From IMG/VR virus record IMGVR_UViG_2585427767_000004: a stretch of 18,960 nucleotides of DNA; one strand, 5' to 3'. Under the pieces are notes generated by a model. That model ran no database searches and was not told where the DNA came from. It worked only from the letters and a program-made list of their open reading frames with translations. Origin of the DNA: a virus. Its lineage: Duplodnaviria > Heunggongvirae > Uroviricota > Caudoviricetes. Shown piece after piece: positions 1-18,010 of this stretch; position 1 is the stretch's first letter; the number at the start of each line of letters is the position of its first letter. The position numbers and the translations under genes were made by a program.

Positions 1-884
1 ATGGGTATGCTGGAAAGAGAGATGAAAAACCTGGCGCGGCAGGCTGGCGGGGCGCACAAGATTGTCCATGACCGTATCGCCACGGCAGGACGGTTCTGTG
101 GACGCCTGATGGAACTGAACGTTCAGATACGCTATGTCCACCATTTAAAGACGAAGCATATTGAGGCGTATATTCAGATGCGGCTGGCGCAGGGGATTCA
201 GAAACAGACGCTGCATAATGAAACGGCGGCCATCCGTAAAATACTGACGCAGGCCGGGCGCGAAAAGCTGGCGCAGAGTGAGCGGATATCGAATAAATCG
301 CTGGGGCTGGCTGGCGTATCCCGCAACGGTACGCGGAAAGCCATTACGCCGGAATATTATCAACAGATGGCAGAGACTGCCCGGCTGAAAGACGCGGGAC
401 TGGAGGCAGCGCTGGAGCTGGCACGGCTGATGGGGTTACGTTCACAGGAAGCAGTACGCTGTTCCGGTTCACTAAAAACCTGGCGCGAAGCACTGGCGCA
501 CGGCGACACCCGGCTGACCGTGGTACTCGGCACCAAAGGCGGACGGCCCCGCGGCACCCTTATTCAGGATACTGGCGCAGTTAAACGGGCGCTTGAGACT
601 GCCATTGCGGTGACAGAACGGCGTAACGGCAGGCTGATTGATACGGCGAGCCTTAAACAGGCAATAAAATACTGGCGCAACCACACTTTGCGTATGGGCT
701 GACGGACAAATACTCCCCGCACTCACTGCGCTACGCCTGGGCGCAGGACGATATCCGCCGGTATCTGGCGCAAGGATTCAGCGAAAAAGAGGCGCTGGCA
801 ATGGTGGCGATGGGCCTGGGGCATGGCGACGGGCACGGTCGCTGGGTGAAGCAGGTGTACGCACACGAATGGAAGAAGGAATAA
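1..884 (+). pseudogene. Tyrosine recombinase (phage-type integrase), reading frame disrupted
   Basis: ORF 1..702 (233 aa) has an integrase-like N-terminal/central region including an Arg-containing box-I-like segment (RLTVVLGTKGGRPRG). TGA at 700-702 ends it, but the catalytic box II continues in another frame at 699..884 (LTDKYSPHSLRYAWAQDD...GLGHGDGHGRWVKQVYAHEWKKE, with His-x-x-Arg and a C-terminal Tyr). Either a real frameshift or a sequencing indel near 690-705. The ORF reaches the window start, so the true 5' end may lie upstream. Confidence 0.6.
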
Positions 885-1462
885 CAGCTTTCATGGCTGG
901 CGCAAAATAATACATTATGCAGTAACGGCGGTAATTTCTCTGATGCAGCTGTCAGGGAAAATCAAACCGGATAGCGCCGTTACTGCGTAACGCCAGCAAT
1001 TTACCACTCCCTCTTTACTGGATATGGCGCAGAGAGCAATGGGTATTGATTATACAGATCCAGACTACAATAACGCTTCTGGTGCAGGCTCTCATGATAC
1101 CTATCTGAATAAGCTGACTCCGTCAGAAAGGGAAAGGGTTATAAAGGTTAAAGGTGGCTAAGGGTAACAGCCCTGGCCGGAAAAGGCCGAAAACCAAAGG
1201 GCCACAAACTGGCGCAGTCCTGGATAGTTATGGTAGTTGAATGCAGGTTTGGTTGATCACAATACAGCCTGGTGTGTACAGCTTGTTCATTAACTGACCA
1301 CACTGCACGTTCACAACACCCCATCCAAAGAACAAAATGAATGCTTCCGGACTAACATCCTCACAGGCCGCTATATCGTGCCAAACAAGTACGCCAGTAA
1401 GTACGCGAGAGGAAAAATGAGAAGATCTTTATGAGAGGAAAAATTGTAACTCTTTGATTTAA

Positions 1463-1508
1463 ATGGTGCCGATAATAGGAGTCGAACCTACGACCTTCGC
1501 ATTACGAA
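1463..1508 (-). other. 3' fragment (about 46 nt) of tRNA-Thr(CGU), thrW-like; att core duplicate, not a functional tRNA
   Basis: Minus-strand sequence reads ATTCGTAATGCGAAGGTCGTAGGTTCGACTCCTATTATCGGCACCA: anticodon loop with CGT, T-arm GGTTCGACTCC, acceptor 3' strand and CCA. The sequence upstream of the anticodon loop (higher coordinates) does not form the D-arm or 5' acceptor strand, so only the 3' part is present. The match to E. coli thrW is from memory, not from a search. Confidence 0.8.
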
Positions 1509-2494
1509 TTATAAGAATCCGCTTCTAATTCAAAGCATTACCCCATTAACACTGCGCTCACACGTCCCACCACATCAAAACATGTAAAGCCTTGCAAGCC
1601 ATTGTGAGGCCTTATGTGTCTCAGTTTTGTCCCATCTTGTATTACGACTCGCATAGCCAATGAAGATAAACGTGACAACAAACGGCGAAGCAGTCTTCTT
1701 TTCTTTCACGCCTTCCCTGCACGCAGCATGCATACCTTTCTACCACAACTGAAGTGAATGCCTGTTATGAGCAACAAGCGGAAGTTAAATGGTTAGACGT
1801 TAGCATCGACTTACACAGGTCTAACCCAATGCGGCAGCTCCCGACAGGCTGGATGTTGTCAATGCTGAAAAGGGCAAGGGACGGGCAACCGCATATCTCG
1901 GCCTGCAGCGGCCCCTCCTGAAAGACGAGTCTCAGCGCTGGCATCGGCAGAATGCGTGACGGAACACATGACATCGATACGGGCGATGTTGAACAGTGTG
2001 CGTTCCCGTTCGGCAGGGGGGAGCGTGGTATGAACAGACCTGTTTTAGCCAGCCCGTATACCGGTCCCGTTTTCAGCTGTGTGAGGCGCTGAATGCCGTC
2101 GACGGGGTAGTCACTCACTTTTCCTGCGAGGGGCATCCCCGCGCCGCTGCGCGGCCATATGTTGTTTTCTCTTCCAGTGAGTTAGTGGCTCGCCGGACAG
2201 ACTGCGCAATCAGAATGGCTCACCGTCAGGGGCGCCTGCGGTACGTGTGGTGAGTGACAGGGGATTTCAGTGTTGCTTCGGGCAATTTTTTGTACTGCAT
2301 TGAACCCAATGATATCCGGTTAACCGGAAAGCCATGGCTGGGGTTAATCCCCCGCTGGCGAAGAAGGATAATGGATCACCATGCAACCTCTTGAAAATAC
2401 TTCCTTGATTATCAGAGTGTTTTTCCTCAAAATGTTTTTCTTTCAAACATTTTGTAATACACACTGCAATACACAACTTCTAAATGGATAAAGT

Positions 2495-3865
2495 ATGACT
2501 CTGAATGAATTTTCATCAACCACAGCATCTATTTTTGGTAATTTTGAAAAAATCATAAGAATGCTAAAAAGCATAAGTGACCCTAAATACATAACCGTTG
2601 CCAACAGAAGAAGCAAACTTTTGGGAAATATGTCCGAACATATTTCCATAATCAATAAATTCCATCCTTTCGCACATGCTGAATTCTTTACAAAAGAAGA
2701 AAAAGAAAATATCTTTTCACTACTAAAACTTACGGACAACTACATATCATCTATGATTTCTGATATTTTTTCAGATGATATTTATCGGAACATTATCACT
2801 ATCAATGATGATTTAATTAGGTATTCAAGAATATCTAAGTTTATCCAAGGCACGCATAATCAACCTAATACCTTAGCCATGTTCAAAAATCAAGCATCTA
2901 ATGAAATAGCCAAAGTGGTAGATCTGAAAAATGAAATTGAAATAAGTGCAACTCAAATCAGAGAGTTAGCAGTAAGAAATGCAAATTCTCATGATAAAAT
3001 CATTAAACTTGTTACGGACTTGAACGCCGAGACGAAAAAATTTGAAAGCGCCGGTTCTGAAATAGAATTCATACTAAAAAAGAGCAGAGATGCACTTATT
3101 GGTATAGAATCATCTAGTGAAAAGCTAAGAACTGTTGAAGAAACATTAAACAATATCGTTAATACAAACAAATCAATGCAAGACGAAATCATTAAAAAAT
3201 CTGCTGAGTCTGCCAGTGAGATTAAAAATCTCCTTGATAAAAAAAATGAAATTAAAGAATTAAAAACCATTATATCTGGTGAAATAAATAATGCGAAAGA
3301 ATTGAACTCTAAAGCTAATTCCGCATTGAATTTATCTGGAACATATAGGCTATCAAGACATTTTAGAGATGCATACAAAACCGCAAATAAAAACAAAAGG
3401 TTTTGGGCCTTTGTATCAATAGGAGCTGCAATCGTATGTATAGCATTCGTGGTTTATATGCTTGTCAAGATGAATGAAGTTAGTTCTTATCCTCCTACAG
3501 GCCAAGAGCCCAACTTATTATTATTATTCTTTGCTCGATTCTCAATGATTCCAGTATTAATAGGCTTCTTTGTATTTAGCGCCATACAATATGTTAAACA
3601 AAACAACATCAGTGAAGATTATGCGCATAAAAAATTGCTATCTGAAACTCTTGTATCTTTCAAGCAGGAAATCAATAAGAACGATACCGATAAATCATCA
3701 TTATTCATGGATAACATTCTTAAATCAGTATTAAGATCACCGCTTAGCTCCATAGACAAGAAGTCGCATCAAATGGAAATTGATAAAATAAACGAATTGA
3801 TTAATACGACATCTAAAATTAATAAAGAAATTATAGACCGCGTTTTGCCTGAGAAAGAGAAATAA
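2495..3865 (+). CDS. Hypothetical protein, 456 aa: coiled-coil-rich N-terminal domain, two predicted transmembrane helices, short C-terminal tail; candidate membrane effector (defence / superinfection exclusion); family not recognised
   Basis: Long uninterrupted ORF in a visibly AT-rich block, with ATG at 2495 and a weak GGA Shine-Dalgarno about 6 nt upstream. Residues about 309-330 (FWAFVSIGAAIVCIAFVVYMLV) and about 348-370 (LLLLFFARFSMIPVLIGFFVFSAI) are strongly hydrophobic. The N-terminal 300 aa are K/E/I/N-rich with heptad-like periodicity. No catalytic motif recognised. Confidence 0.8.
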   Translation: MTLNEFSSTTASIFGNFEKIIRMLKSISDPKYITVANRRSKLLGNMSEHISIINKFHPFAHAEFFTKEEKENIFSLLKLTDNYISSMISDIFSDDIYRNIITINDDLIRYSRISKFIQGTHNQPNTLAMFKNQASNEIAKVVDLKNEIEISATQIRELAVRNANSHDKIIKLVTDLNAETKKFESAGSEIEFILKKSRDALIGIESSSEKLRTVEETLNNIVNTNKSMQDEIIKKSAESASEIKNLLDKKNEIKELKTIISGEINNAKELNSKANSALNLSGTYRLSRHFRDAYKTANKNKRFWAFVSIGAAIVCIAFVVYMLVKMNEVSSYPPTGQEPNLLLLFFARFSMIPVLIGFFVFSAIQYVKQNNISEDYAHKKLLSETLVSFKQEINKNDTDKSSLFMDNILKSVLRSPLSSIDKKSHQMEIDKINELINTTSKINKEIIDRVLPEKEK

Positions 3866-4110
3866 CCTTATCTATAGCTACAAGGAAGGTAATATGCTTT
3901 TTGCAGTTACCTTCATGTAGCAGGTTTGCAATCACTACATATGTAATTTTTATTTCCCACTCATTCGCCCTAACTCAATTTGCATACTTACCTCATTAAT
4001 AGGCATTTTGTCTTCCATGAGTACATCCAAGCCTCTCCGGTCAGGGCATGAAGGGGCGCCAGTTCATAGACGGTGCAGTGATTCTGTCCAGTGCTGGCAT
4101 TCCGCATGCT

Positions 4111-4162
4111 GCAGCTGCGCGGCAAGCCTGAAATCTGCTGGCATACTTTACGCTCGGTGCGC
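4111..4162. repeat. Direct repeat R1 (about 51 bp), partner of 4306..4357
   Basis: GCAGCTGCGCGGCAAGCCTGAAATCTGCTGGCATACTTTACGCTCGGTGCG versus GCAGCTGCGCGGCCAGTCGGAAATCTGCTGGCATACTCTGCGCCCGGTGCG, near-identical by eye. Additional copies of a TGCTGGCA-like motif occur nearby (e.g. about 4091, 4181, 4362). Confidence 0.6.
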
Positions 4163-4305
4163 CGGTGAACACGGCCCGCAGCTGGCATCTTTACACATAA
4201 CCAGTACTGTAAAAGTCCCGTAATACCGTGTCGCCCGGTCATTTTCAAACCACCGTTTGGCCGCTACCATTCAGTACTTTTCGTCCTGCTGACAGATGTG
4301 CCATC

Positions 4306-4357
4306 GCAGCTGCGCGGCCAGTCGGAAATCTGCTGGCATACTCTGCGCCCGGTGCGG
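4306..4357. repeat. Direct repeat R2 (about 51 bp), partner of 4111..4162
   Basis: See R1; same orientation, about 195 bp apart, in a GC-rich segment with no convincing ORF. Confidence 0.6.
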
Positions 4358-4512
4358 TCGCAGAACTGCTGGCAGACAGTCCTTTCTTCATTTACCCACT
4401 ACCTGGACACAAAGCGTTGTACGTCCAGTTTGGGGGCGAATTATGATTAGGCAGGCTCCGGCAGTGCTCCCGGCTCTGTCAAAATTTAGTGACGTAAAGT
4501 CATGGAGGATCG

Positions 4513-4644
4513 GTGGGAGGAGGTGCAAATCCTCTCATACAAAAAATACGTAAAATCGGTAACGGCTGGAAATAATTCAATACTTGCACTATCGGAAGTT
4601 CACCAGCCAGCCGCAGCACGTTCTTGCATACGACGTGCCTGCGG
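4513..4644. repeat. Direct repeat A (about 130 bp), partner of 9108..9234; ends in a stem-loop
   Basis: Aligns by eye to 9108..9234 at roughly 80 percent identity (shared CAAATCCTCTC...GTAAAATCGGTA.C.GCTGGAAAT.ATTCAA...GCACTATCGGAAGTTCACCAGCC..CCGCAG). 3' hairpin CCGCAGCACG-loop-CGTGCCTGCGG followed by TTT. Confidence 0.7.
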
Positions 4645-5349
4645 TTTCAACTCCCGCCAGCCCACCAATCATGATTGGACGGTGTAAGGACAACACCAAA
4701 AAAACATGAAGTTAGCAGTCTCAGCGGAACACCGACCAGACGGTAAGCAGACAAAAAAGGATAAGCAAAGGAGCCGCAGTTCCCTAATGACACGAAAGCC
4801 CGCATTCTGATTAATTTGCTGTGCTTCACCTATCTCCATCAATAAAAACCATTCTTTTATAGCTTGTATATGCCAACTTGGCATGAATGCTTGTGATGAG
4901 TGAGGTGTGAAAGTTAGACGCAACATCCCCCTAGCGCCCACTCATTGCTATCGACGCCTTATTTTCAACATCAATGCAAATAGAAGTATGAAGATCGATG
5001 ATAGTAAACATTAGGTTAAAAAAACACGTAGTACTCTCCTTGGAGTATGAAGACGTTACTCACTTTAAGATTAGCATCCTCAAACCACTGTGAATTTGCT
5101 CCCATACGGAAAGAGGTGACTCAGACCTACAAAAATTTGTCAGGCCCGAAGGGTATCTTGCGCCAGCATAAAATACTGGATATAACCTAACTATTCATTT
5201 TAGCAATAGCCATTGCTTACGAGAGCTAGCTAATCTACGTAAATGCTAGGCATAACAGTGTCTTTAAAAGATATAGGTGGAATAAGTTCTGAAGTATGAG
5301 TGCTCTTCTTTTTCATCTATTCGTAATCAAAATGTGGATGTGATTGTTA

Positions 5350-8300
5350 ATGACAAATAAAAAAAATTTGAGTAATCCTTTTTCTACAGGCGGAGGCGGT
5401 GTTCATTTTGAAGCACATGTCCAAGCGTCTTTTGTTGCTCTAATGCTAACAGGCGGTAATGCACCTTGTCTTCCTTGTTGGCCCATAGTGGAGATAAATC
5501 TCCAGGGCAAGATTGATGGTTTTGATACCGACGACTTGATCGTCGTTGTTAAAGATTTCAACAGCAATGAAAAACGGAAGCTATTAGGACAAATAAAGCA
5601 TTCTATTTCATTTACGCAAGGTAATGCGATACTTGGGGAAGTTATACAGGCTGCTTGGAACGATTTCAACAATCCTGACTTGTTTACCAAGAACAAGGAT
5701 GTTATTGCACTGATCACCGGTCCGCTCAGTTCGACCGATACACACAATGTGCTCTGGTTATTGAATCAGGCTAGACACACAAAAACAGTCGATGAATTTT
5801 TGAGGAACGTTCAAAAAGCCAAGTTCAGCCCGCCTAAAAGTACTGAGAAACTGGAGGCCATCCAGTTTCATCTGAAGATGGCAAACAGTGGGAACGATTT
5901 AACAAACGATGAGCTTTATGACTTTTTGAACCATTTCCATTTACTAGGGTACGATCTGGGTAATGAATCAGGCGTCGTCCTTTCTTTGCTGCACTCCCAC
6001 ATAGCGCAATTCCATCAACAGTATCCTCAGTGGGTTTGGTCGCGGATAGTTGATATCGTACAAACTTGGAATAAAGATGCTGGCACTATCATTTCAAGTA
6101 AGCTACCTGAAGATCTTTTAGATGTTTTCAAACAAAGGGTTATTGCTGAAATACCTGAGAAGTTGAGGTTAGTACAACCGGTAGTCAAAACCGACTGGAC
6201 TCACCACCCAGATGCCTCTTATTTAGCCTTAGCAGTGTTGATTGGGCAATGGAATGATAAAAATGAGTGTGACCGAAATGTACTAACCCAATTGCTTGGT
6301 ATCAGCTATGACGAATGGCTAAGGAAGGCTCGAGAGATTTTACATAGCCCAGACAGTCCTTTGTCCCTAAAAAACGGCATTTGGAAAGTAACAAATCGAA
6401 TGGAGCTATGGAGTCTTCTTGGATCCCGCATTTTTGATCAGAATCTTGAATTGTTTAAGTCTTCCGCGATTTCCGTACTCAAAGAGCCAGACCCTGCTTT
6501 CGAATTACCTGCTGAAGAGCGTTACGCTGCTAGTATTCATGGTAAGGTGCTGAAGTTTTCATCCACGCTGCGACAAGGTATAGCAGAGGGTTTAGCCATA
6601 ATCGGGAGTCGGCCAGAGGTTTGCGTTAACTGCTCTCAGGGGAATGCTGAAACTTCCGTTAACGTCGCAATACATACAATTTTGACTGATGCAAACTGGG
6701 TTTTATGGGGTAGCCTAAACGGTTTGCTACCAACTTTGGCTGAAGCAGCTCCTGCAAAATTTCTTGATGCAGTTGAGAAGGCAATGCGTCAGACTCCTTG
6801 TGCATTTGATGAGCTTTTTTCTCAAGAAGTAAATGGTATCACTGGTGGTAATTATCTGACAGGACTGCTATGGGCTCTAGAAGAATTAGCCTGGGATGAG
6901 CAATACCTAGTACGCGTCTGTGTTGTACTGGCCGAACTTGCCAGCCACGATCCTGGGGGCAAGTGGGCTAATCGACCATCTAACTCGCTTACTACTATAT
7001 TATTACCGTGGTTTCCGCAAACGCTGGCATCTATAGAAAAACGAAAAGTTGCAGTCAACGTCATCTTGCAGGAATGGCCTGACATTGCCTGGAATTTACT
7101 CGTCCAGCTTCTACCCGGTCACCATCAAACCTCTTCTGGGTCACACAAGCCCTCTTGGCGCCGAATAATCCCAGATGATTGGGAAAGCAAAGTGACTAAT
7201 CAGGATTACTGGTTGCAGACATCTTTTTATGCTGAGCTTGCCGTCAAAAACGCCGGAGAAGATATCGAACGCCTTACCTTGTTGATTGATAATTTTGATG
7301 GCCTTCCATCTCCTGCTTTCGAACATCTTCTTAAGCACCTCTCTTCGGAAACAATTAATTGTCTTAATGAAGAGCAGCGAGTTGTAATTTGGGATCATCT
7401 TCATCGATTCGCAAATAAACATCGGCGATTCTCTAATGCTAATTGGGCTTTACCTGATGATCTGCTGACCAAAATCGAAAATGTTGCCGAGCAACTGGCA
7501 CCTACCAATCCATTCAACTTATATCAGCACCTTTTTTCAAATCGAGATTTTGATCTTTACTTAGAAAATGGCGATTGGGAAGAACGGAGAAATAAACTCG
7601 AATCAAGGCGCGAATCCGCAATATCAGAAATTCTTAAGCAAGATGGCGCAGAAGGCGTTATTCGATTTGCAGATCACGTTTCTGCGCCCCATCAAATAGG
7701 AAGTGTACTCGGCACTATCAACGATGATGTGTTCGAAAAACTTCTTTTGCCCCGTTTCCTCAATACAAAAGAAAATAAGTATAAGGCATTGGTAAGCGCT
7801 TTTATTTGGAAGCGTTTCTATCTCAAAGGCTGGGAGTGGTTCGACAATCTGGATAAAGCTGACTGGACTCCTGAACAGTTAGGCCAATTCTTTGCTTATC
7901 TGCCTTTTAACAAGGAGACCTGGACCCGAGTCTCTCATTATCCTCAAGCTTCCGAGAACGAATATTGGGCTCGCACCGATGCAAATCCTGACCTGGGTGA
8001 AGGTGACCTTACTAGTGCCATCGATAAGCTGATTGATCATGGCAGACCTCTTGCGGCAATCAATTGCCTGTGCAGGATGCATCAGACAAAGCAGCCAATC
8101 GATACTGAACAGTGTATCCGCGCTTTGCTTGCTGCCACTTCAACTAACGAATCTAGCTCCAACATGGATGGTTACAACATAACTACCCTTATCCAATTTC
8201 TTCAGACTGATCCCAAAGTGAATCCGGATAATCTTTTTCAGATCGAGTGGGCTTACCTTCCATTGCTCGATGGTCACCAAGATGCTGTGCCTAAGTTCCT

Positions 8301-8892
8301 TGAGAATAAAATGGCTAATGATCCAGAATTTTTCTGCGAAGTAATCCAACTCATTTATCGTTCTGACAAAGAAGACAATATGACAAGTGAACCAACAGAG
8401 GAATTGAAAGCAATCGCAAAAAATGCCTGGACTCTTTTGTACAACTGGAAGACACCGCCAGGAAGCCAATCAAATGGGACGTTCAACGGAGAACGCTTTA
8501 CTGAATGGCTTCAGAAAGTTAAGGAGGGTTCTACGGCATCAGGTCACCTGGACGTTGCACTCAGCAAAGTTGGTGAAGTCTTGATTTATACTCCCTCCGA
8601 ACCGAATGGCTTGTGGATAAACCGAGAGGTCGCAGCTGCTCTCAACGATCGAGATGCTGAGAGTATGCGCAGGGGCTACATGACAGGAGCCTACAACTCA
8701 CGAGGTGTTTATTGTGTTGACCCAACTGGAAAACCTGAGAGAGAGCTAGCTGACCAGTTCCGGGCAAAAGCAGAAGAAGTGGAAAACGCTGGTTTTCAGC
8801 GATTCGCCGTTACCTTAAGAGATTTAGCGGTTGGCTATGACCACGAAGCTGCACAGGTTATCAGCAATCTAAATATTGGAGAGGATGATTAA
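5350..8892 (+). CDS. Large hypothetical protein (about 1180 aa), no P-loop; family not recognised; candidate stand-alone defence or toxin protein
   Basis: Uninterrupted 3.5-kb ORF. The track starts at TTG 5344, but ATG 5350 (MTNKKNLSNPF...) is the more likely start. Moderately AT-rich compared with the tail genes. No Walker A (GxxxxGK[ST]) found on reading the translation. Gly-rich N-terminus (FSTGGGGVHFEAH), CxxC pairs (CLPC, CVNC), Trp-rich helical remainder. Putative terminator just downstream. Confidence 0.85.
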   Translation: MTNKKNLSNPFSTGGGGVHFEAHVQASFVALMLTGGNAPCLPCWPIVEINLQGKIDGFDTDDLIVVVKDFNSNEKRKLLGQIKHSISFTQGNAILGEVIQAAWNDFNNPDLFTKNKDVIALITGPLSSTDTHNVLWLLNQARHTKTVDEFLRNVQKAKFSPPKSTEKLEAIQFHLKMANSGNDLTNDELYDFLNHFHLLGYDLGNESGVVLSLLHSHIAQFHQQYPQWVWSRIVDIVQTWNKDAGTIISSKLPEDLLDVFKQRVIAEIPEKLRLVQPVVKTDWTHHPDASYLALAVLIGQWNDKNECDRNVLTQLLGISYDEWLRKAREILHSPDSPLSLKNGIWKVTNRMELWSLLGSRIFDQNLELFKSSAISVLKEPDPAFELPAEERYAASIHGKVLKFSSTLRQGIAEGLAIIGSRPEVCVNCSQGNAETSVNVAIHTILTDANWVLWGSLNGLLPTLAEAAPAKFLDAVEKAMRQTPCAFDELFSQEVNGITGGNYLTGLLWALEELAWDEQYLVRVCVVLAELASHDPGGKWANRPSNSLTTILLPWFPQTLASIEKRKVAVNVILQEWPDIAWNLLVQLLPGHHQTSSGSHKPSWRRIIPDDWESKVTNQDYWLQTSFYAELAVKNAGEDIERLTLLIDNFDGLPSPAFEHLLKHLSSETINCLNEEQRVVIWDHLHRFANKHRRFSNANWALPDDLLTKIENVAEQLAPTNPFNLYQHLFSNRDFDLYLENGDWEERRNKLESRRESAISEILKQDGAEGVIRFADHVSAPHQIGSVLGTINDDVFEKLLLPRFLNTKENKYKALVSAFIWKRFYLKGWEWFDNLDKADWTPEQLGQFFAYLPFNKETWTRVSHYPQASENEYWARTDANPDLGEGDLTSAIDKLIDHGRPLAAINCLCRMHQTKQPIDTEQCIRALLAATSTNESSSNMDGYNITTLIQFLQTDPKVNPDNLFQIEWAYLPLLDGHQDAVPKFLENKMANDPEFFCEVIQLIYRSDKEDNMTSEPTEELKAIAKNAWTLLYNWKTPPGSQSNGTFNGERFTEWLQKVKEGSTASGHLDVALSKVGEVLIYTPSEPNGLWINREVAAALNDRDAESMRRGYMTGAYNSRGVYCVDPTGKPERELADQFRAKAEEVENAGFQRFAVTLRDLAVGYDHEAAQVISNLNIGEDD

Positions 8893-8918
8893 TCTAAACA
8901 CCTAAATGTGGAGAAACT

Positions 8919-8962
8919 GGCTGTCAATCGATGTTCCTGTCACAGACAGCCAAGTTTTAGTT
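8919..8962 (+). terminator. Putative Rho-independent terminator downstream of the large ORF
   Basis: GGCTGTC...GACAGCC inverted repeat (7-bp stem; inner CTGTC-ACA-GACAG hairpin also possible) followed by AAGTTTTAGTT, 27 nt after the stop codon. Confidence 0.5.
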
Positions 8963-9107
8963 ATTCGCTGATCTGCACTTAGTTGATGAATATAAACTCA
9001 TCTTAGCAACGTACCTCTCCCTCTTGATTAAAGGTAGCGTACATCGCCCCGTTGAACTCACAGCACTAACAGTCCTCGTGACAGTGGTTATCTGTGATGT
9101 AGAGTCT

Positions 9108-9234
9108 GTGGAGGCGGTTCAAATCCTCTCAGGCAAAAATATGTAAAATCGGTAGCAGCTGGAAATCATTCAACACCCGCACTATCGGAAGTTCACCAGC
9201 CATCCGCAGTAACTTGTCATGGCAAGACACTGCG
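9108..9234. repeat. Direct repeat B (about 130 bp), partner of 4513..4644; ends in a stem-loop
   Basis: Same element as repeat A. Its hairpin is CCGCAGTAACTTG-loop-CAAGACACTGCGG: the stem is preserved with different inner base pairs, i.e. compensatory changes relative to copy A. Lies immediately 3' of the minus-strand gene 9246..9533. Confidence 0.7.
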
Positions 9235-9245
9235 GATTCTTATGC

Positions 9246-9533
9246 TTAACGGATCAACAGCCAGACCAGCAGACACGCCACCACCGGCACAGCAAAATCC
9301 ATCAGGCTTGCCACATCCCAAGCACGCGGATCAAAACCGCCCCACCACGGCATATTCATTCGCTTGCCATGCCCGAACATTTCAATCCAGCGATATTCTG
9401 CCTGGGTATGTTCACGAGCGATGAAGAACGTACAACCAGCTATCGCACCGTAAGCCCAGTTTCCGGTAAAAAGACCAACCAGTACCTGCGCAGCCACAGC
9501 ACAAAGTGCATGAAGTAAGGGGCTTATATCCAT
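9246..9533 (-). CDS. Small hydrophobic (membrane) protein, 95 aa, last gene of the tail-fibre operon; function unknown
   Basis: ORF with two to three hydrophobic segments (LLHALCAVAAQVLVGLF, AVPVVACLLVWLLI). Follows the tail-fibre genes on the same strand with a 13-nt gap. Confidence 0.65.
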   Translation of the reverse strand: MDISPLLHALCAVAAQVLVGLFTGNWAYGAIAGCTFFIAREHTQAEYRWIEMFGHGKRMNMPWWGGFDPRAWDVASLMDFAVPVVACLLVWLLIR

Positions 9534-9546
9534 TACTCCTCCTTTA

Positions 9547-10248
9547 TCAGATATCGTTTCGGGAAGTTGATAACAACTTTAATTCTGACTGAAGTTCATC
9601 AACTCTTTCTGTCAGTTTCTGGATATGGTGAATCAGTGGAACAACCAGACGTTCGTACATTACACCTTCGGCAACAAGGCCATTGCTGGAAATAGCTTCC
9701 GGTGCATCATCTTCGTTAGCTGGTCGCCAGTGTACAAACTGAGGGGCAATTTCTCCTACTTCCTCGGCAATCAATCCGTAGAATCCCCAGTCACGCCTGT
9801 CATTTTCGCATTGCGACCTGTACCACACAGGGCGCATCTTGAAAATGAGATCGGCGTGCTCTGAATCTATCGTCTCTACTGAATGTTTATAGCGAATAGA
9901 CGATGTTGACCGCAGTACAGACGAAATTGCGGGGTCAGGATTAAGATAAAGGTTTGCCGCCGCTGTAGTCGTGGCCAAATTCCATAAATAAAACGCTTCT
10001 CGACCTGTCAGCGGGTAAAAATCACCGCCATAACGACCGCTTTCCAGATCGTTCGCTTCCACTTTGTTTTTCAGCTTATTATCAACTTCAGTTTTTGTGT
10101 ATCTGGTGCTGATATCCTGCTTTGCACTGGTCATATCAGTCTGAAGCGTTGATACTTTTCCGTTAATTGAGGAAATATCTTCCTTAGCTTTACTGACATC
10201 TCCCTTTAGCGTGGTAATGTCTCCCGGAATTACTGTCGATGTAGCCAT
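9547..10248 (-). CDS. Tail fibre domain protein with C-terminal intramolecular chaperone (peptidase S74-like) domain
   Basis: N-terminal coiled-coil-like segment (GDITTLKGDVSKAKEDISSINGKVSTLQTDMTSAKQDIS) and C-terminal WGFYGLIAEEVGEIAPQFV...YERLVVPLIHHIQKLTERVDELQSEL, which matches the pattern I recall for endosialidase-chaperone-type C-terminal domains of phage fibres. Confidence 0.7.
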   Translation of the reverse strand: MATSTVIPGDITTLKGDVSKAKEDISSINGKVSTLQTDMTSAKQDISTRYTKTEVDNKLKNKVEANDLESGRYGGDFYPLTGREAFYLWNLATTTAAANLYLNPDPAISSVLRSTSSIRYKHSVETIDSEHADLIFKMRPVWYRSQCENDRRDWGFYGLIAEEVGEIAPQFVHWRPANEDDAPEAISSNGLVAEGVMYERLVVPLIHHIQKLTERVDELQSELKLLSTSRNDI

Positions 10249-10257
10249 TTTTCTTCC

Positions 10258-10539
10258 TCACATCCAGCCACGAAGTTGATGCTCAACAGCAACCACGTAT
10301 TCATCGAATATTGACAGTGTTTTCACATCATTAATGATGCGCACGTTTACAAAATATCCGTCTTCCTTAACACATACCGGTTCGCCATCTTCATTCAGTT
10401 CTCCGGTTTCTTTGTACACGTTACCTATCACGTCAATAAGAATATCATCCTGCATCGACTCGTCATCATAATAGCCAGTGCTATCCATAAAGGCCGAAAA
10501 GTCGGCCTTGTCTGCAAATTTAAGGGTTAAGTCTCTCAT
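10258..10539 (-). CDS. Hypothetical phage protein (93 aa), translationally coupled to stf
   Basis: Start codon overlaps the stf stop (ATGA overlap at 10536-10539). Acidic protein. Sits where lambda carries tfa but is shorter, and I do not recognise it as Tfa. Confidence 0.65.
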   Translation of the reverse strand: MRDLTLKFADKADFSAFMDSTGYYDDESMQDDILIDVIGNVYKETGELNEDGEPVCVKEDGYFVNVRIINDVKTLSIFDEYVVAVEHQLRGWM

Positions 10540-12596
10540 GATATTTTTTCTCCCATTTGTGTCTCGGTCAATTCTTTATGCCAGTTCCTAAAATTTCGAA
10601 TATGACCGAATAAGTGACGTTCACCCGTTGAAGTTTGCCCACCAAAACGAATGCTTGTATTCTTAGTTACATATCTCCACGCGGTTTTTTTAGGAACACT
10701 AGGAGGAATATCACCATTCAAAACAATATGAACACCATAATCTTTAGTAATTCTAAATCCAGCAACGAACTTTCTCTCTTTCGTTACCAGGTAACTATTA
10801 ACGCGTCCAGCATCTGCACCAACATCAATATAAGGGCTACCAGTATTTGCGGCAGTACCGCCACGGCAACCAAAAATAACGGCCTGGCCCGTTGGCACAC
10901 CGGAAAAATCCATTATACGTGGTGCTGCATTAGGAGGAAGTTCCCATTCCCAATTTCGATGAACTTCGGCTAAAATTGTAATAGGTGCGTCATACATATT
11001 ATTCTTAACAGGAATGTTAACCAAATCACTAGCGCGGGTAGCTGGTACGTCGTTAGTTATGATTAATGATGTTGCATGAGAACATTTCTCTACCTGAGCG
11101 GTTGCCGCCTTTATGTAATTTCCTGCGACCAATTCGCCGCCACTTTTAGCAAGCATTTCAGTACGAGCATAAACGCTCATATCTTCGGTAGCTTTAAATG
11201 TCGATTGGAAAAAATACCATCCACTAGCAGGATCATAATCAACGCGACTAGACAAAACATCACTAACTAGTTTAGCGGTATCAAGATCCAACATAGCATC
11301 AGCAATAAATGTGTTTCCGTTCCCGTCATCATTTAATTTTGAAATACGATGGCGAGCGCGACAACCAGCCCCCTTAACACGAATAGATATAGTAACATAT
11401 TCACCACCAACAACTGGAATCACACGGGATGTCCCAGTAGAAATCAACGTAACTGGCCCAGTGTCGGATGATTCTTTATAAGTGAATGTTGCTTGAGTAA
11501 AACCAAATTCATCAATAGAGTTTTCACTAACAGATAGACGGTTTGTATTTCTGTTCCAGTTCGCTGGTGAGTTACTATTAATAAAGTTATTAGTCGTAGT
11601 ACCTTCAATCAACAAACCATTTTTTTCGAAGCGTGGTTCGTCAATTGCAGCCTCCGTCAGTACACCAGATTTGTTAATGTAGGTTGCTTTCGATGCGCGT
11701 TTAAACTTTACAACCTTATCGCCAGGCATTGTTATTTCATCATCACCAATAACAATCTTTTTATATGATGGCGAAAAGCCCGTAATCATATCCAGTGAAT
11801 CGTTAAACGGTATCCACACATCGGGAAGCGGCTGCAAAACTTGTTTATACGGCTCCGCAGCCTGGCTTGCATACTCTCTGGCTGCGTCTTCACTTGCTTT
11901 AGCTGCTGTCTGGCTTGCTGCCGATGCTTTCGCCGAGTTCGCCGCCGCTGTTTCGCTCGCCTTTGCGTTGTTTTCACTGGTTTTTGCTGCTTTTTGGCTG
12001 TTGGCTGATGCAGTGGCAGAAATAGCCGCCTCGCTTGCAGATCCGGCTGCGGCACTCTCGCTTTCAGCTGCTGCATCCTGACTGTTTTTCGCCGCAGTTT
12101 CGCTGGCTTTAGCGTTCGTTTCGCTGGTCTTCGCTACCGTCTGGCTGGACTTTGCGTTAGTTTCGCTCGTCTTCGCTGCTTTCTGGCTGTTAGCAGCTGC
12201 AGTTTCGGATTTCTTTGCCGCCGCTGCGCTCTGAGAGGCGGCTTCAGCGTTGCGTGCTGCTTCTTCCACCATTGCCTCAAAACGACGCAATGCCTCCGGC
12301 ATGACATCATCTTCCGTCATGGCACCGAGAAAATCATTCAGCGTACCAGGTCTGGAACCTTCATAGACGGTAATGGTTCCGGCATGTGAAGGCGGAAAAC
12401 CTTCAACCAGCAGGGTGACGCTGTACTGGCCATGCTCAACATCCATGCTGTAACTCCCGGCTTCATCCGGATTTTCAGAGGCCACCGTGTTCACCAGTAC
12501 CGTGGTGCTGTTACGCTTTGCTTTGAGCTGAATAGTGCAGTTCTGTATTGGTTTTCCTGCACCGTCTTTCAGCACGCCTGAAATCTGTACTGCCAT
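10536..12596 (-). CDS. stf: Side tail fibre protein (lambda Stf-like) with Ala/Ser/Thr-rich repeat shaft and a distinct C-terminal domain
   Basis: N-terminus MAVQISGVLKDGAGKPIQNCTIQLKAKRNSTTVLVNTVASENPDEAGSYSMDVEHGQYSVTLLVEGFPPSHAGTITVYE closely resembles the lambda Stf N-terminus as I recall it. Start placed at ATG 12596 with GGAG 5 nt upstream; the track start at 12602 is an in-frame GTG. Confidence 0.9.
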   Translation of the reverse strand: MAVQISGVLKDGAGKPIQNCTIQLKAKRNSTTVLVNTVASENPDEAGSYSMDVEHGQYSVTLLVEGFPPSHAGTITVYEGSRPGTLNDFLGAMTEDDVMPEALRRFEAMVEEAARNAEAASQSAAAAKKSETAAANSQKAAKTSETNAKSSQTVAKTSETNAKASETAAKNSQDAAAESESAAAGSASEAAISATASANSQKAAKTSENNAKASETAAANSAKASAASQTAAKASEDAAREYASQAAEPYKQVLQPLPDVWIPFNDSLDMITGFSPSYKKIVIGDDEITMPGDKVVKFKRASKATYINKSGVLTEAAIDEPRFEKNGLLIEGTTTNNFINSNSPANWNRNTNRLSVSENSIDEFGFTQATFTYKESSDTGPVTLISTGTSRVIPVVGGEYVTISIRVKGAGCRARHRISKLNDDGNGNTFIADAMLDLDTAKLVSDVLSSRVDYDPASGWYFFQSTFKATEDMSVYARTEMLAKSGGELVAGNYIKAATAQVEKCSHATSLIITNDVPATRASDLVNIPVKNNMYDAPITILAEVHRNWEWELPPNAAPRIMDFSGVPTGQAVIFGCRGGTAANTGSPYIDVGADAGRVNSYLVTKERKFVAGFRITKDYGVHIVLNGDIPPSVPKKTAWRYVTKNTSIRFGGQTSTGERHLFGHIRNFRNWHKELTETQMGEKIS
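11855..12270 (-). repeat. Tandem short repeats inside stf encoding an (A)KTSETNAKAS-like Ala/Ser/Thr-rich shaft
   Basis: Protein residues about 112-250 consist of reiterated AAKTSETNAK / SQKAAKTSE / ASETAAKNS units; the DNA shows corresponding reiterated GCTTTAGC/GTTTCGCT/GTCTTCGC blocks. Confidence 0.55.
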
Positions 12597-12610
12597 ATTC
12601 ACTCCACAAA

Positions 12611-12635
12611 TAAAAAAGGCGCCATTTCTGGCGCC
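12611..12635 (-). terminator. Rho-independent terminator between J and stf
   Basis: On the minus strand: GGCGCC-AGAAAT-GGCGCC followed by TTTTTTA, beginning 21 nt after the J stop and ending just upstream of the stf ribosome-binding site. Confidence 0.65.
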
Positions 12636-12656
12636 CGTATTGGGGTTATAAATATT

Positions 12657-15600
12657 TCAACGGATACTGATACCGGAAGCAGCTTTTTTGGTCACAATCA
12701 CTGTACAGTCTGTGATGTTACCTGCGCCCTGATTGCCTTTCTGGAAAACCTTAAACTCCAGAGTGACGCTTCCCCTGCCACTCGGCATATCAATAACCGC
12801 ACTGTAGCTACCGGGAATGGCCCCTTTAGTTTCTCTGGATGCGATTAATACACCGTTTTTGCGAACTTCAAAACCATAACCCGTGTATCTTGTACCTCCC
12901 GGGTTATTACCACTTCCCGGATCGCTATACGCTATTCCGTTAAAGATAATGGGCGGAATAATGATTTGACGGTCAAAGTTATGATCATCGCTGATGGTGA
13001 CTGTAACCGTCCCGTTTGGTGTTTCCGTATTACCCCACGTACCAGCCTGTTTCGGGAATGATTTGGATACAGCTTTAACGAAGTCACCTCTGACCTGAGT
13101 CGCCTCCAGCATGCCCTTAATCGTACAGTTTTCATTTACCGTGACATTGTTGAACGTCCCGGCGTTCGCATTCACACTGCCACTGATATCCGCATTTTTA
13201 GCGGTCAGCTTTCCGTCTGATGTCAGGGAAAATGCCGGTGGATTTCCACCACTGGTAATGGTCGGGGCCGTCAGGCGCTTCAGGAACACGTCGTTCATAA
13301 ATATCTGATTGCCCTGCGCCACAAACATCGGCGTTTCATTCCCGTTTGCCGGGTCAATAAACGCGATACGGTTAGCGGCAACCAGAAACTGGCTCAGCTT
13401 GCCTTCTTCCGTGTCCTCCATGCTGAGGCCAATACCCGCGACATAATGTTTGCCGTCTTTGGTCTGCTCAATTTTGACGCCCCACATGGCATTCCACTTA
13501 TCGTTAGCGTCCTGCCACTCTTTCGAAAACTCCTCCAGTTTGCTGGCGTTATCCTCCGTCAGCTCGACTTTTTCCAGCAGCTCCTTGCCGAGATGGGATT
13601 CGGTTATCTGGCCTTTGAAAAAATCCAGGTAACCTTCCGCATCATCGCTCGCCTGACCGACAGCCTCCACGAATGCCGATTTGCCAACGGTGTTCACACT
13701 GCGGATATAAAAGTAATAATCATGGCCCGGTTTGATATTGATACTGGCGGCTATCCAGTACATCCCCGTGCCAAGATAGCGGGCTGTGGTTTCAACCTGC
13801 CTGATATCCGCAATCCGTTTTTCCGAGAACCAGAACTCAAACTGTACCGTCGGGTCATAAACCGCAAGATGCGGCGTGGCGGTTATCTGAAAATAGCCCG
13901 GTGTCAGCTCAATCCGAGACGGCGCTGCCGGTGCGGCAATCCGGAACGATACCGATGCCGGATCGCCCTGCTGTCCCCACGCATTTACCGCCCGGACTGT
14001 CAGCCTGTAGTTCCCCAGCGCCAGTTGCGTGAAGCGGTATGTGGTTTCCGCCGTCCGGGCCGTGCTGACCAGCCGCTCACTGCCGTCATCCGCTGCCACG
14101 GTCAGGCGAAGCATGAAACTCACGCCCTTCACCACCTTCGGCGTGTCCCAGCGGGCCAGCACCTGGTATTCCCCACTGTCTGCGGTGACTTCGGCAGTCA
14201 GGTGCTGCACCGCTGGCGGCGTGACACCATTCACCGTGCCGCTCTGGTCGCCGTCAAAGTGCGCCCCGTTATCCACGATGGCTTCTTTTTCCGGTACATG
14301 CTGCACGGCGGTGATGGCATACGTGCCGTCGTCGTTCTCACGGATACTCACGCAGCGGAACAGGCGCTGGCGCAGCGTCGGCAGCTTCAGCCCCCACACG
14401 CTGTATTCAGCAACGCCGTCAGGAACACGGCTCACTTTCACCTTCACGCCGTCGGTGACGGACTGAACCTCCACGCTGACCGGATTGCCACTTCCGTCAA
14501 CCAGGCTTATCAGCGTGGTACCGGAGGATGGCAGCGTGATTTCACGGTCGAGCGTCAGCGTCCGGGTCTGGCTGTTTACCGCCAGCACGCGCCCGCCGGT
14601 GCTGATACCGGCATAGTCATCATCACAGATTTCAATGACATCGCCCGGCACATGGCGAAGCCCTTCGGCACCCACGCTGAAGTCCACCGTCTGCGTTTCC
14701 AGCAGCTCCGTTTTAATCAGCCACAGCCCGGCGCGGTGTGCCTGCCCCCGGCTGGTACAGCCAAAGGCATCCATCTTCGTGACGTTACGACCGTAACGGG
14801 CAATGGCCTGCGAGTCCTCCACAAGCTCTGTTGCCGTCTCCCAGCCGTTATCCGGGTCAATCCAGTTCACCTCAACGGCATTATGGCGGTCTTTCAGGGC
14901 GCTGAAGCTGTAGCGGAACGGCGCGCCATCATCCGGCATCACCACATTACTGCGGTTATAGGTCCACACCTTATCCGACGGTCGGTCCTGCACGAACGTC
15001 AGCGTCTGCCCGTTCCATACCGGCATACAGCGCATCGCCGAGCAGAAATCACTGAGCACATCCCACGCCTTGCGCTGTGTGGTCAGGTATGCATTACAGG
15101 TGATGCGCGGCTCCGTGCCGCCAAAGCCGTCCGGTACTGACTGGTCGCAGTACTGGCCGATGACATACAGCGCCCATTTGTCCACATCCGCCGCACCAAG
15201 ACGTTTCCCCATGCCGTAGCGTGGATGGGTCAGCATATCCCACAGACACCAGGCCATGTTGTTGCTGTATGCCGGTTTAAACGTTCCGTCCCAGATACCG
15301 CTGTATTGCCGCGTCTGCGGGTTATAGTTCGACGGCACCTGCAGAATGCGCCCGCGAAGATGATAATTACGGCTCACCTGCTGGCTGCCGAACTGCTCCG
15401 AATCCACCTGTACGCCGACCAGTGCCGTGTTCGGGTAGCACTGTTTCACATCGATGATTTCGGTGTATGACGACCAGAGCGTTTTGTTCTGCAGCTGGTC
15501 TGTGGTGCTGTCCGGTGTCATCCTGCGCATCCGGATATTGAACGGGCGCGGCGGCAGGTTATCCACCACCACCGAGGCCAGATACTGCGAGGTGGTTTTG

Positions 15601-16070
15601 CCCTTAATGGTGATGTCTTTTTCCGTCACCCAGCCACCGTTACGCTGTATCTGAACCAGCAGGCGGACTTCCGACGGATTCCTGTCTCCCTTTGAGGTGG
15701 TTTCCACCAGTGCCTGTACACCGAAGGTAAAGCGCAGACGGTCGATGTTTGCCGACGTGATGGTCCGGGTGATCGGCGTGTCATATTTCACTTCCGTACC
15801 CAGCACCGTCTCGGAGCCGGAGGATTCAAATCCCTCCGGCGGTGACTGCTCCTGCTCACCGGCCCGGAACACCACCGTGACGCCGGAGATGTTGGTATTC
15901 CCCTCAGTGTCCAGCACCGGCGTACTGTTCAGCAGCACACTTTTTAATCCCTCCACCGGACCTTCAACCGGCCCTTCGCTGATGGCATCGATCACACTCA
16001 GCAACTGCGTGGACTTCAGGTTGTCCTTCGCTTCGCGCGGGGTATGCCCCTTACTGCTGCCTTTACCCAT
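12657..16070 (-). CDS. J: Host specificity protein J (central tail fibre / tip attachment protein)
   Basis: 1137-aa protein beginning [34 protein letters not shown], colinear with lambda J as I recall it over most of its length. The C-terminal roughly 130 aa (from about [20 protein letters not shown]) appear different. GGAG ribosome-binding site upstream. Confidence 0.95.
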
Positions 16071-16130
16071 TCCTCACGCTCCATAAACGACAAAACCGCC
16101 CGCAGGCGGTTTCACATAAAACATTTTGCA

Positions 16131-17968: not shown

Positions 17969-18010
17969 TGAACTGCACCCCAAATGTTGGACATAATCTG
18001 ACATCTGAAG

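What the first reader, a model, noticed from the sequence alone, without database searches (positions are those of the whole stretch)
1463..1508. Partial tRNA-Thr(CGU) marks a prophage junction, with geometry implying tandem elements at one tRNA hotspot
Only the 3' 46 nt of the tRNA is present, which is the signature of a displaced att core copy. Because the fragment is on the minus strand, the intact tRNA and the phage integrase should lie to the right of the window, beyond the tail and head genes. The lambda-like element therefore occupies coordinates above 1508. The disrupted integrase at 1..884 then lies outside that prophage and probably belongs to a second, older integrative element stacked at the same tRNA.
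Basis: partly seen in the sequence, partly recalled or inferred. Interest (0 to 1): 0.5.

Follow-up and report, generated by a model that had tools for sequence, protein, structure and literature searches.

The report
Prophage end at the thrW tRNA
The 46-base tRNA-Thr fragment is the ordinary displaced copy left where a lambda-like prophage, using the well-studied P22/Shigella-Sf integration module, inserted into the thrW tRNA gene next to an older defence island; it is a textbook case, not a new one.

Summary
No complete tRNA is present.

It is letter for letter the published att core of phages SfI, SfII, SfV, SfX and P22.
- Left side: 1..1463 is 99.9% identical to the DNA that follows an intact thrW in E. 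coli genomes without this prophage.
- Right side: 1510..1636 is 95-98% identical to the gtrA-side attP arm of SfIV, SfII, SfI and SfV.

So this is the integrase-distal prophage junction.

In related strain A28 the same junction starts a ~47 kb lambda-like prophage.

In this genome that far end cannot be reached. The window, and apparently its source contig, stops inside an IS1397 that cuts tail gene L.

ORF 1..884 is a frameshifted small tyrosine recombinase. It heads a ~21-25 kb dnd/dpt/AbiE defence island that sits beside thrW in genomes lacking this prophage. The "older stacked element" reading is therefore supported. However, I found no second thrW fragment at the island's far end.

Already known biology; low interest.

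The parts
1..884 (+). Pseudogene of a 294-aa tyrosine recombinase (Pfam Phage_int_SAM_2 + Integrase_1). A 1-nt deletion in a G run near 693-696 separates the N-terminal 233 codons from the part carrying HxxR and the catalytic Tyr. It reads towards the thrW fragment. It belongs to the older island, not to the prophage.
   Evidence: Pfam hits E 5e-46 and 3e-31. Alignment with the intact 885-bp gene of strain 33F4 shows a single 1-nt gap. Annotated 'integrase domain-containing protein, frameshifted' next to an intact thrW in Ecol_316.
885..1445 (.). Spacer between the recombinase pseudogene and thrW. It is native to island-bearing E. coli and has no annotated gene.
   Evidence: Part of the 1..1509 block that is 99.9% identical to a dozen genomes with an intact thrW and no prophage at this junction.
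1446..1463 (-). 18-nt thrW trailer (GTAACTCTTTGATTTAAA on the + strand). It is conserved at thrW across E. coli and imperfectly mimicked in Sf-type attP.
   Evidence: Hits start at window 1446. The A28 flank re-aligns with Ecol_316 from 18 nt before the tRNA end. Side-by-side sequences.
1464..1509 (-). Displaced 3' 46 nt of thrW tRNA-Thr(CGU). This is the att core of the junction far from the integrase.
   Evidence: Exact match to thrW nt 31-76 and to the core in SfIV attP and in A28 attL and attR. Identical to the published 46-base core. No full tRNA.
1510..1636 (.). Phage attP arm, the side that faces gtrA in the Shigella phages. This is the first prophage DNA.
   Evidence: 97.6% identity to SfIV, 96.1% to SfII and SfI, 95.3% to SfV. 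The region is annotated attP in AF021347. It lies between the core and gtrA in SfIV.
1637..9245 (.). Prophage accessory ('moron') region between the att junction and the tail-fibre genes. It includes the 456-aa ORF 2495..3865 (+) and the 1182-aa ORF 5344..8892 (+), both of unknown function.
   Evidence: 1662..4000 is 99.2% identical to a prophage integrated at ssrA in strain 19AR1321. No informative family or PDB hits.
9246..12602 (-). Tail-fibre module: ORFs 9246..9533, 9547..10248 (Peptidase_S74 chaperone domain), 10258..10539 and 10536..12602 (prophage tail fibre N-terminal domain).
   Evidence: Pfam, PHROGs.
12657..17419 (-). Lambda-type tail tip genes: J (12657..16070), I (16131..16778), K (16676..17419).
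   Evidence: Precomputed Pfam families for the identical genes: GpJ domains, Lambda_tail_I, Prok-JAB/NLPC_P60. RefSeq annotation of relatives.
17425..17947 (-). Minor tail gene L, truncated at its 5' end by the IS insertion.
   Evidence: 189-aa ORF here against 232 aa in relatives. Phage_tail_L family.
17948..18960 (+). Left part of IS1397 (IS3 family). The window, and apparently the source contig, ends inside it.
   Evidence: 99.3% identity to annotated IS1397 copies. Window 1..13865 is 100% identical to JOQV01000003.1, whose end falls 2 nt beyond the position corresponding to the window end.

Best explanation
Window 1464..1509 is the prophage/host junction far from the integrase. It was produced when a lambda-like temperate phage carrying the P22/Shigella-Sf-type int-xis-attP module integrated into the thrW tRNA-Thr(CGU) gene.

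Mechanism. The phage attP carries a copy of the last 46 nt of thrW. The tyrosine integrase exchanges strands within this shared block. The phage copy then completes the tRNA at the int-proximal end, next to proA. The bacterium's own 46 nt are displaced to the far end, where they are joined to the gtrA-side attP arm (1510..1636) and still followed by their native downstream DNA (1..1463).

That native downstream DNA is the thrW-proximal end of an older dnd/dpt/AbiE defence island. The island's own small tyrosine recombinase (1..884) was already frameshifted. The prophage was therefore inserted between thrW and a pre-existing island, giving two foreign elements in series at one tRNA gene.

Shown directly: the identity of core, arm and flank; the empty-site and occupied-site comparisons; the pseudogene.

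Inferred: that strand exchange happened in this lineage by Int; that the intact thrW plus int-xis still exist about 45 kb to the right in this genome; and that the older island originally arrived by site-specific integration.
For: - Core: exact 46/46 identity to thrW nt 31-76 and to the core inside SfIV attP. It is identical to the experimentally mapped SfI attP/attL/attR core, which that paper states is shared with SfII, SfV, SfX and P22. A 46-bp att site at both prophage ends is also reported for SfIV.
- Left flank: 1..1509 is 99.7-99.9% identical to a dozen complete E. coli genomes in which the match runs into an annotated intact tRNA-Thr followed by proA-proB.
- Right flank: 1510..1636 is 95-98% identical to the attP arm of SfIV, SfII, SfI and SfV. 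This arm lies on the gtrA side, opposite int.
- Whole-element model: strain A28 has the same junction, then lambda-like tails, heads, lysis and early genes, xis, an Int 99% identical to SfIV Int, intact thrW and proA. The two core copies are 47,047 bp apart.
- Frequency: 430 of 5,426 complete E. coli genomes carry core plus this arm.
- Same combination elsewhere: dndBCDE, the recombinase pseudogene, the core and this prophage end occur together in several draft genomes and metagenome scaffolds at 99.8-100% identity.
- Older island: the identical frameshifted gene sits beside an intact thrW in Ecol_316, which lacks this prophage, so the frameshift predates the prophage. An intact 294-aa version exists in strain 33F4 in the same place. 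A28 lacks the 24.6 kb between paoD and thrW, so the island is accessory DNA.
- Hotspot: strain EcPNK004 has the same island flank followed by a different, P22-like prophage with only about 17 nt of thrW. Strain HZ13 has a Zorya island beside the same kind of junction. Reviews list thrW among the most used tDNA hotspots.
Against: - The int-proximal end (intact thrW, int, xis) is not in the window and could not be reached in the same genome. The window ends in IS1397, which interrupts tail gene L, so a rearrangement beyond that point cannot be excluded.
- No complete RefSeq E. coli genome has this exact island-plus-prophage junction.
- No second thrW-derived repeat was found at the far end of the older island in Ecol_316 or 33F4. 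Its mode of arrival is therefore inferred only from position, from the recombinase gene and from its presence or absence across strains.
Confidence: 0.92

Rival explanations
1. The fragment is a decayed tRNA pseudogene or a deletion remnant of thrW, with no site-specific integration involved.
For: No intact tRNA is in the window. An IS element is present elsewhere in the window, so illegitimate rearrangements do occur in this region.
Against: The break falls to the base at the boundary of the published 46-nt att core. It is followed at once by 127 nt that are 95-98% identical to the attP arm of characterised thrW-integrating phages. The same junction occurs in 430 complete genomes.
Confidence: 0.02
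2. The junction is genuine, but in this genome the prophage is a truncated remnant. IS1397-mediated deletion or inversion has removed or relocated heads, early genes, int and the int-proximal junction, so no intact thrW or integrase lies 'to the right'.
For: IS1397 cuts gene L at 17948 and nothing beyond is visible. A second draft assembly, GCA_000714335.1, also breaks at this IS.
Against: Contig breaks at multicopy IS elements are the usual outcome of short-read assembly. The window end coincides with a contig end. A sibling assembly encoding an identical K protein has L intact and continues through tape measure, capsid and portal. Relative A28 is complete up to int-thrW-proA.
Confidence: 0.1
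3. The left-hand DNA (1..1463) is not a second integrative element that used thrW. It is a defence island that reached this variable region by other means, such as homologous recombination of flanks. The small recombinase is unrelated to the island's mobility or is a leftover of something else.
For: No thrW-derived direct repeat at the island's far end in two genomes. The 294-aa protein lacks the arm-binding N-terminal domain of classical phage integrases and scores only weakly against XerC and phage integrase profiles. A remnant of a different, P4-like integrase lies at the far end in 33F4, so the region is a patchwork.
Against: The recombinase gene sits beside thrW and converges on its 3' end, the same geometry as Sf-type int next to thrW. 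The protein keeps the tyrosine-recombinase motifs: Arg in GLRSQE, HSLRYAW, and Tyr near the C terminus. The island is absent from A28.
Confidence: 0.25

Closest known systems
thrW-specific int-xis-attP module of Shigella flexneri serotype-converting phages SfI, SfII, SfIV, SfV and SfX and of Salmonella phage P22
   Same: Identical 46-nt core. The adjoining attP arm is 95-98% identical. Same target gene next to proA. In the close relative A28 the integrase is 99% identical to SfIV Int.
   Different: Here the module is attached to a lambda-like siphovirus body (J, I, K, L and lambda-type heads in siblings). The position next to attP holds unknown-function genes instead of the gtrA-gtrB-gtr(type) O-antigen modification genes.
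Complete thrW prophage of E. coli A28 (NZ_CP028747.1, about 3,804,008-3,851,130)
   Same: Same core, arm, homologue of the 1182-aa gene, J, I, K and L, at about 97% identity over the shared parts. It shows the full layout from the displaced fragment to int-thrW-proA.
   Different: A28 has no dnd island beside the junction; a LysR fragment and paoD follow directly. It has ISSen4 in place of the 456-aa gene region, a different tail fibre plus Lom, and no IS1397 in gene L.
Tandem island arrays at tRNA genes as defined by Islander (Hudson, Lau & Williams 2015, PMC4383910)
   Same: The regenerated tDNA and its displaced fragment mark an island's ends. Several elements can lie in series at one tDNA, with the newest next to the intact gene.
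   Different: Islander accepts a tandem array only if each member has its own integrase and its own tDNA fragment. The older element here has a recombinase pseudogene but no detectable fragment.
Other thrW-associated islands of E. coli (for example PAI III536 and the vat/tsh islands of APEC) and CP4-6 of K-12
   Same: Same hotspot downstream of proBA-thrW. That CP4-6 sits at thrW in K-12 is from my own knowledge and was not tested here.
   Different: Different cargo (virulence genes versus dnd/dpt/AbiE defence genes) and different integrases. Not compared at sequence level here.

Membership tests
Integrase-distal att junction of a P22/Sf-type thrW-integrating prophage | Core identical to the 3' 46 nt of thrW and to the phage attP core | tested here: met
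   46/46 with thrW, SfIV attP, and A28 attL and attR. Identical to the published core string.
Integrase-distal att junction of a P22/Sf-type thrW-integrating prophage | One side of the core is the phage attP arm that lies opposite int | tested here: met
   1510..1636 is 95-98% identical to SfIV, SfII, SfI and SfV. In SfIV the order is int, core, this arm, gtrA.
Integrase-distal att junction of a P22/Sf-type thrW-integrating prophage | The other side of the core is the DNA that follows thrW at an unoccupied site | tested here: met
   1..1509 is 99.7-99.9% identical to genomes where an intact thrW and proA follow.
Integrase-distal att junction of a P22/Sf-type thrW-integrating prophage | A regenerated intact thrW, in the same orientation, with cognate int and xis at the other end of the element | not testable with these tools
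   The window and source contig end in IS1397. The junction scan of genome contigs found nothing. Integrase look-ups could not be directed to the sibling assemblies. The feature is met in relative A28.
Lambda-like (lambdoid, long non-contractile tail) prophage | Lambda-type tail tip and fibre genes in lambda order (L-K-I-J-fibre) reading towards the att end | tested here: met
   Pfam families Phage_tail_L, NLPC_P60/JAB, Lambda_tail_I, GpJ domains and phage_tail_N. A sibling locus adds tape measure, V-, U- and Z-like genes, capsid E, decoration protein and portal.
Tandem array of integrative islands at one tDNA (Islander criterion) | Each member has its own integrase gene | tested here: met
   The older element carries a frameshifted PF12834/PF12835 tyrosine recombinase at 1..884. 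The younger element's int was seen only in relatives.
Tandem array of integrative islands at one tDNA (Islander criterion) | Each member has its own displaced tDNA fragment | tested here: not met
   No thrW-like repeat longer than 13 nt (at most 12 nt exact) anywhere in 50 kb (Ecol_316) or 40 kb (33F4) downstream of thrW. Only the prophage has a fragment.
Functional tRNA gene | Complete cloverleaf recognised by tRNA finders | tested here: not met
   ARAGORN found 0 genes. No Rfam tRNA match at E<=1. The sequence 5' of nt 31 is phage arm, not tRNA.

The most novel reading that the evidence does not exclude
The att junction itself leaves no room for novelty. The most novel reading not excluded concerns its neighbours.

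(a) The 294-aa PF12835-type recombinase converging on thrW may be the dedicated integrase of a class of dnd/dpt/AbiE defence islands that insert beside thrW without duplicating any tRNA sequence.

(b) Alternatively or additionally, the att-proximal prophage cassette (456-aa and 1182-aa proteins with no known family) may be a new phage-carried defence or superinfection-exclusion system, sitting in a swappable slot bounded by ~100-nt repeats.
Probability: 0.15. Interest if true: 0.4.

Novelty: already known. Interest (0 to 1): 0.07.

Why it matters
It matters mainly for annotation. The fragment fixes one prophage boundary to the base (1509/1510). It tells an annotator that 1..1463 belongs to a different, older island, and it predicts where the integrase and the working thrW copy lie.

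It also gives a clean example of how tRNA hotspots accumulate elements in series: here a lambda-like prophage next to a DNA-phosphorothioation/AbiE defence island. The same island flank has been hit independently by at least two kinds of phage in different strains.

None of this changes current understanding. The core sequence, the target and the mechanism have been published for P22 and the Shigella Sf phages.

Tried and rejected
- A scan of genome contigs for the exact 116-nt junction found nothing. That collection holds one genome per species.
- No complete RefSeq E. coli genome holds the exact island-plus-prophage junction. The best full-length matches across 1380..1760 are only 90% identical, and no record covers at least 80% of the window.
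- I tried to reach the int-proximal end in sibling assemblies. A look-up of window protein K reached only as far as the portal gene. A homologue search with the A28 integrase returned cluster representatives carried on unrelated short contigs.
- I searched for a second thrW-derived repeat bounding the older island in Ecol_316 and 33F4. Only chance-level matches of at most 13 nt turned up.
- There is no second copy of the core or other att-like long repeat within the window.
- PDB sequence searches for the recombinase and the two cargo proteins gave no hits. Pfam, NCBIfam, PADLOC and PHROGs gave nothing informative for the cargo proteins beyond phrog_18693 (unknown function) and a weak DruC hit.
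- The only Rfam hit in the window (CssrB, 24 bits against a gathering score of 76, E 0.25) was rejected as a terminator-like chance match.

Full report
**Observation.** The window carries, on the minus strand at 1464..1509, the string ATTCGTAATGCGAAGGTCGTAGGTTCGACTCCTATTATCGGCACCA. This equals nucleotides 31-76 of the 76-nt thrW tRNA-Thr(CGU) gene as annotated in E. coli Ecol_316. It runs from the last base of the 5' anticodon-stem strand, through the CGT anticodon, to the CCA end. ARAGORN finds no tRNA in the window, and Rfam at E<=1 reports no tRNA. So only a fragment is present. Chance is excluded: 192 nt (core plus downstream flank) match the thrW locus at 100%, E = 8e-109. There is a single copy in the window.

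**What lies on each side.**
- Leftwards, window 1..1509 is 99.7-99.9% identical to about a dozen complete E. coli genomes. In those genomes the alignment runs into an annotated, intact tRNA-Thr.
- In Ecol_316 the order is dptH, dndEDCB, 'integrase domain-containing protein (frameshifted)', tRNA-Thr, proA, proB, phoE. So 1..1463 is the DNA that normally follows thrW in this lineage.
- Rightwards, identity to the tRNA stops at 1509/1510. The next 127 nt (1510..1636) are 97.6% identical to phage SfIV, 96.1% to SfII and SfI, and 95.3% to SfV. In the SfII record AF021347 this region is annotated as attP 'similar to P22 attP'.
- In SfIV, oriented like the window, the order is xis, int, the 46-nt core, this arm, gtrA-gtrB-gtrIV.
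- Placing the five sequences in register shows the classical four-way relation. The five are the window, the Ecol_316 empty site, SfIV attP, and the two A28 junctions. The window equals the left half of the empty site plus the core plus the right half of attP.

**Agreement with published experiments.** For SfI, the attP, attB, attL and attR sites were sequenced and the common core was given as the same 46 bases. That paper states the core is identical in SfII, SfV, SfX and P22, with integration into thrW next to proA (PMC3636060). The SfIV paper reports a 46-bp att site at both prophage ends and places the serotype-conversion genes next to int-attP (PMC3851460).

**Geometry.** attP reads int-arm / core / gtrA-arm. 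The bacterial site, in window orientation, reads downstream flank / core / tRNA 5' part / proA. Recombination therefore yields two junctions:
- downstream flank / core / gtrA-arm, followed by the phage. This is the window.
- phage, then int-arm / core / tRNA 5' part / proA.

The integrase and the complete tRNA must therefore lie at the other end, to the right of the window.

Strain A28 shows this directly. The partial core (L004 6009-6054) is followed by a homologue of the 1182-aa gene, tail fibre, Lom, J, I, K, L, M, tape measure, lambda-type heads, terminase, lysis genes, Q and early genes. Then come xis, a tyrosine integrase, an intact tRNA-Thr on the opposite strand, proA and proB. The two core copies are 47,047 bp apart. 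The A28 integrase is 99% identical to SfIV Int. This junction type (core plus this arm) occurs in 430 of 5,426 complete E. coli genomes.

**The prophage in the window.** From 1510 onward the window holds:
- an accessory region (456-aa and 1182-aa ORFs of unknown function);
- a tail-fibre module (9246..12602);
- lambda-type J, I and K;
- a 5'-truncated L gene, all on the minus strand.

At 17948 an IS1397 begins and runs to the window end. Window 1..13865 is 100% identical to draft contig JOQV01000003.1 of GCA_000714265.1. By coordinates, that contig ends 2 nt beyond the window end. So the window stops at an assembly break inside the IS. A sibling assembly encoding an identical K protein has L intact and continues through M, tape measure, tail tube, capsid and portal. 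The prophage body therefore exists in the lineage. The int-proximal end in this very genome could not be reached.

**The element on the left.**
- ORF 1..702 plus its continuation to 884 matches Pfam Phage_int_SAM_2 and Integrase_1 (E 3e-31 and 5e-46).
- Against the intact 885-bp gene of strain 33F4 (about 92% identity) it has a single 1-nt deletion in a G run near 693-696. The downstream frame still encodes HSLRYAW and the C-terminal Tyr region. It is a tyrosine-recombinase pseudogene.
- The identical frameshifted gene lies next to an intact thrW in Ecol_316, which lacks this prophage. So the frameshift predates the prophage.
- In Ecol_316 and 33F4 the gene heads an island of dndBCDE, a DGQHR or AIPR gene, dptFGH, HTH genes and AbiEi/AbiEii. 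The window's siblings carry the same dnd genes to the left of the recombinase.
- A28 lacks the 24.6 kb between paoD and thrW, so this is accessory DNA.
- The recombinase converges on the 3' end of thrW, the same arrangement as Sf-type int beside thrW.

One weakness remains: no thrW-derived repeat marks the island's far end in either genome examined. By the strict Islander rule (own integrase and own tDNA fragment for each member) a tandem array is therefore not demonstrated. A rival reading, that the island arrived by another route, keeps about 0.25.

**thrW as a hotspot.**
- In EcPNK004 the same island flank is followed by only about 17 nt of the thrW 3' end (with a 1-nt deletion) and then a different, P22-like prophage.
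- In HZ13 a Zorya defence island lies beside the same Sf-type junction, with a different prophage body.
- 33F4 has a P4-like integrase remnant at the far end of its island.
- A review lists thrW among the most frequently targeted tDNAs in E. coli (PMC7545054).

**Mechanism and confidence.** The best explanation (0.92) is integrase-mediated site-specific recombination between a P22/Sf-type attP and thrW, leaving the bacterium's own 46 nt as the displaced copy at the int-distal end.
- Shown: the sequence identities, the empty-site and occupied-site logic, the pseudogene.
- Inferred: the position of strand exchange within the 46-nt block, the continued presence of int-xis and intact thrW in this genome, and the origin of the older island.

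Because the core is exact and the arm is 95-98% identical to arms of inducible phages, this junction is probably still a substrate for excision. The IS in gene L should nevertheless prevent production of infectious particles (inference).

**Novelty and score.** The core, the target, the mechanism and the serial accumulation of elements at tRNA genes are all in the literature. The finding is correct and useful for annotation, but it is already known. Interest 0.07.

Noticed in passing
window 17948..18960 (and 17425..17947): IS1397 (IS3 family, 99.3% identical to annotated copies) is inserted in lambda-type minor tail gene L, removing its first ~43 codons. The window end falls 2 nt short of the end of draft contig JOQV01000003.1, so the sequence stops at an assembly break inside the IS.
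   Followed up: partly
window 4516..4616 and 9110..9209: Two ~100-nt direct repeats (87-89% identical) bracket the 1182-aa ORF. In other prophages the alignment jumps from about 4551 straight to about 9255. This looks like a swappable accessory-gene slot just past the tail-fibre genes.
   Followed up: partly
window 5344..8892 (+): 1182-aa protein with no Pfam, NCBIfam, PADLOC or PDB match. It matches only PHROG 18693 (unknown function, E 1e-118). It is conserved next to the att end in A28 and in sibling assemblies.
   Followed up: partly
window 2495..3865 (+): 456-aa protein of unknown function, with only a weak PADLOC DruC hit (E 1e-4, 19 bits) and a sub-threshold SUR7 hit. The same gene (99.2% DNA identity over 1662..4000) sits at the end of a prophage integrated at ssrA in strain 19AR1321. 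The cassette therefore moves between prophages with different integration sites. The exact protein is indexed in 154 blocks of the assembly collection.
   Followed up: partly
L019 (NZ_CP071439.1, EcPNK004) about 10464..10480: The same dnd-island flank and frameshifted recombinase are followed by only about 17 nt of the thrW 3' end (with a 1-nt deletion) and then a P22-like prophage (DNA ejection proteins, Abi, PerC). This is an independent insertion at thrW with a shorter shared block.
   Followed up: partly
L018 (NZ_CM147849.1, 33F4) 22752..22975: A C-terminal remnant of a different, P4-like site-specific integrase lies just beyond AbiEii at the far end of the dnd/dpt island. It hints at still older layers of elements downstream of thrW.
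   Followed up: no
window 1446..1463; L003 3437..3454; L004 5991..6008; L005 4038..4055: Similarity between phage attP and the bacterial site continues imperfectly for 18 nt beyond the tRNA 3' end: GTAACT[C/T][T/A]TTGATTT[A/T]AA. The two A28 junctions carry reciprocal mixtures of the two variants. This cannot be interpreted without knowing the ancestral phage and host versions.
   Followed up: no
L014 (CP050222.1, a 6.29-Mb record) 8313 onward: This record has the same prophage end, core and spacer at 99.97% identity. Its left flank diverges at window position 807, inside the recombinase pseudogene, and is replaced by unrelated genes (ParE/RelB, IclR, DUF6750). This is a rearrangement or a different host background.
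   Followed up: no
L008 (NZ_CP128609.1, HZ13) about 6000..6375: A type I Zorya defence island with a YagK/YfjJ gene lies on the host side of the same Sf-type thrW junction. The prophage on the other side has an e14/P2-like tail module (pinE, tfaE, stfP, baseplate J). The att module is therefore shared among unrelated phage bodies.
   Followed up: no
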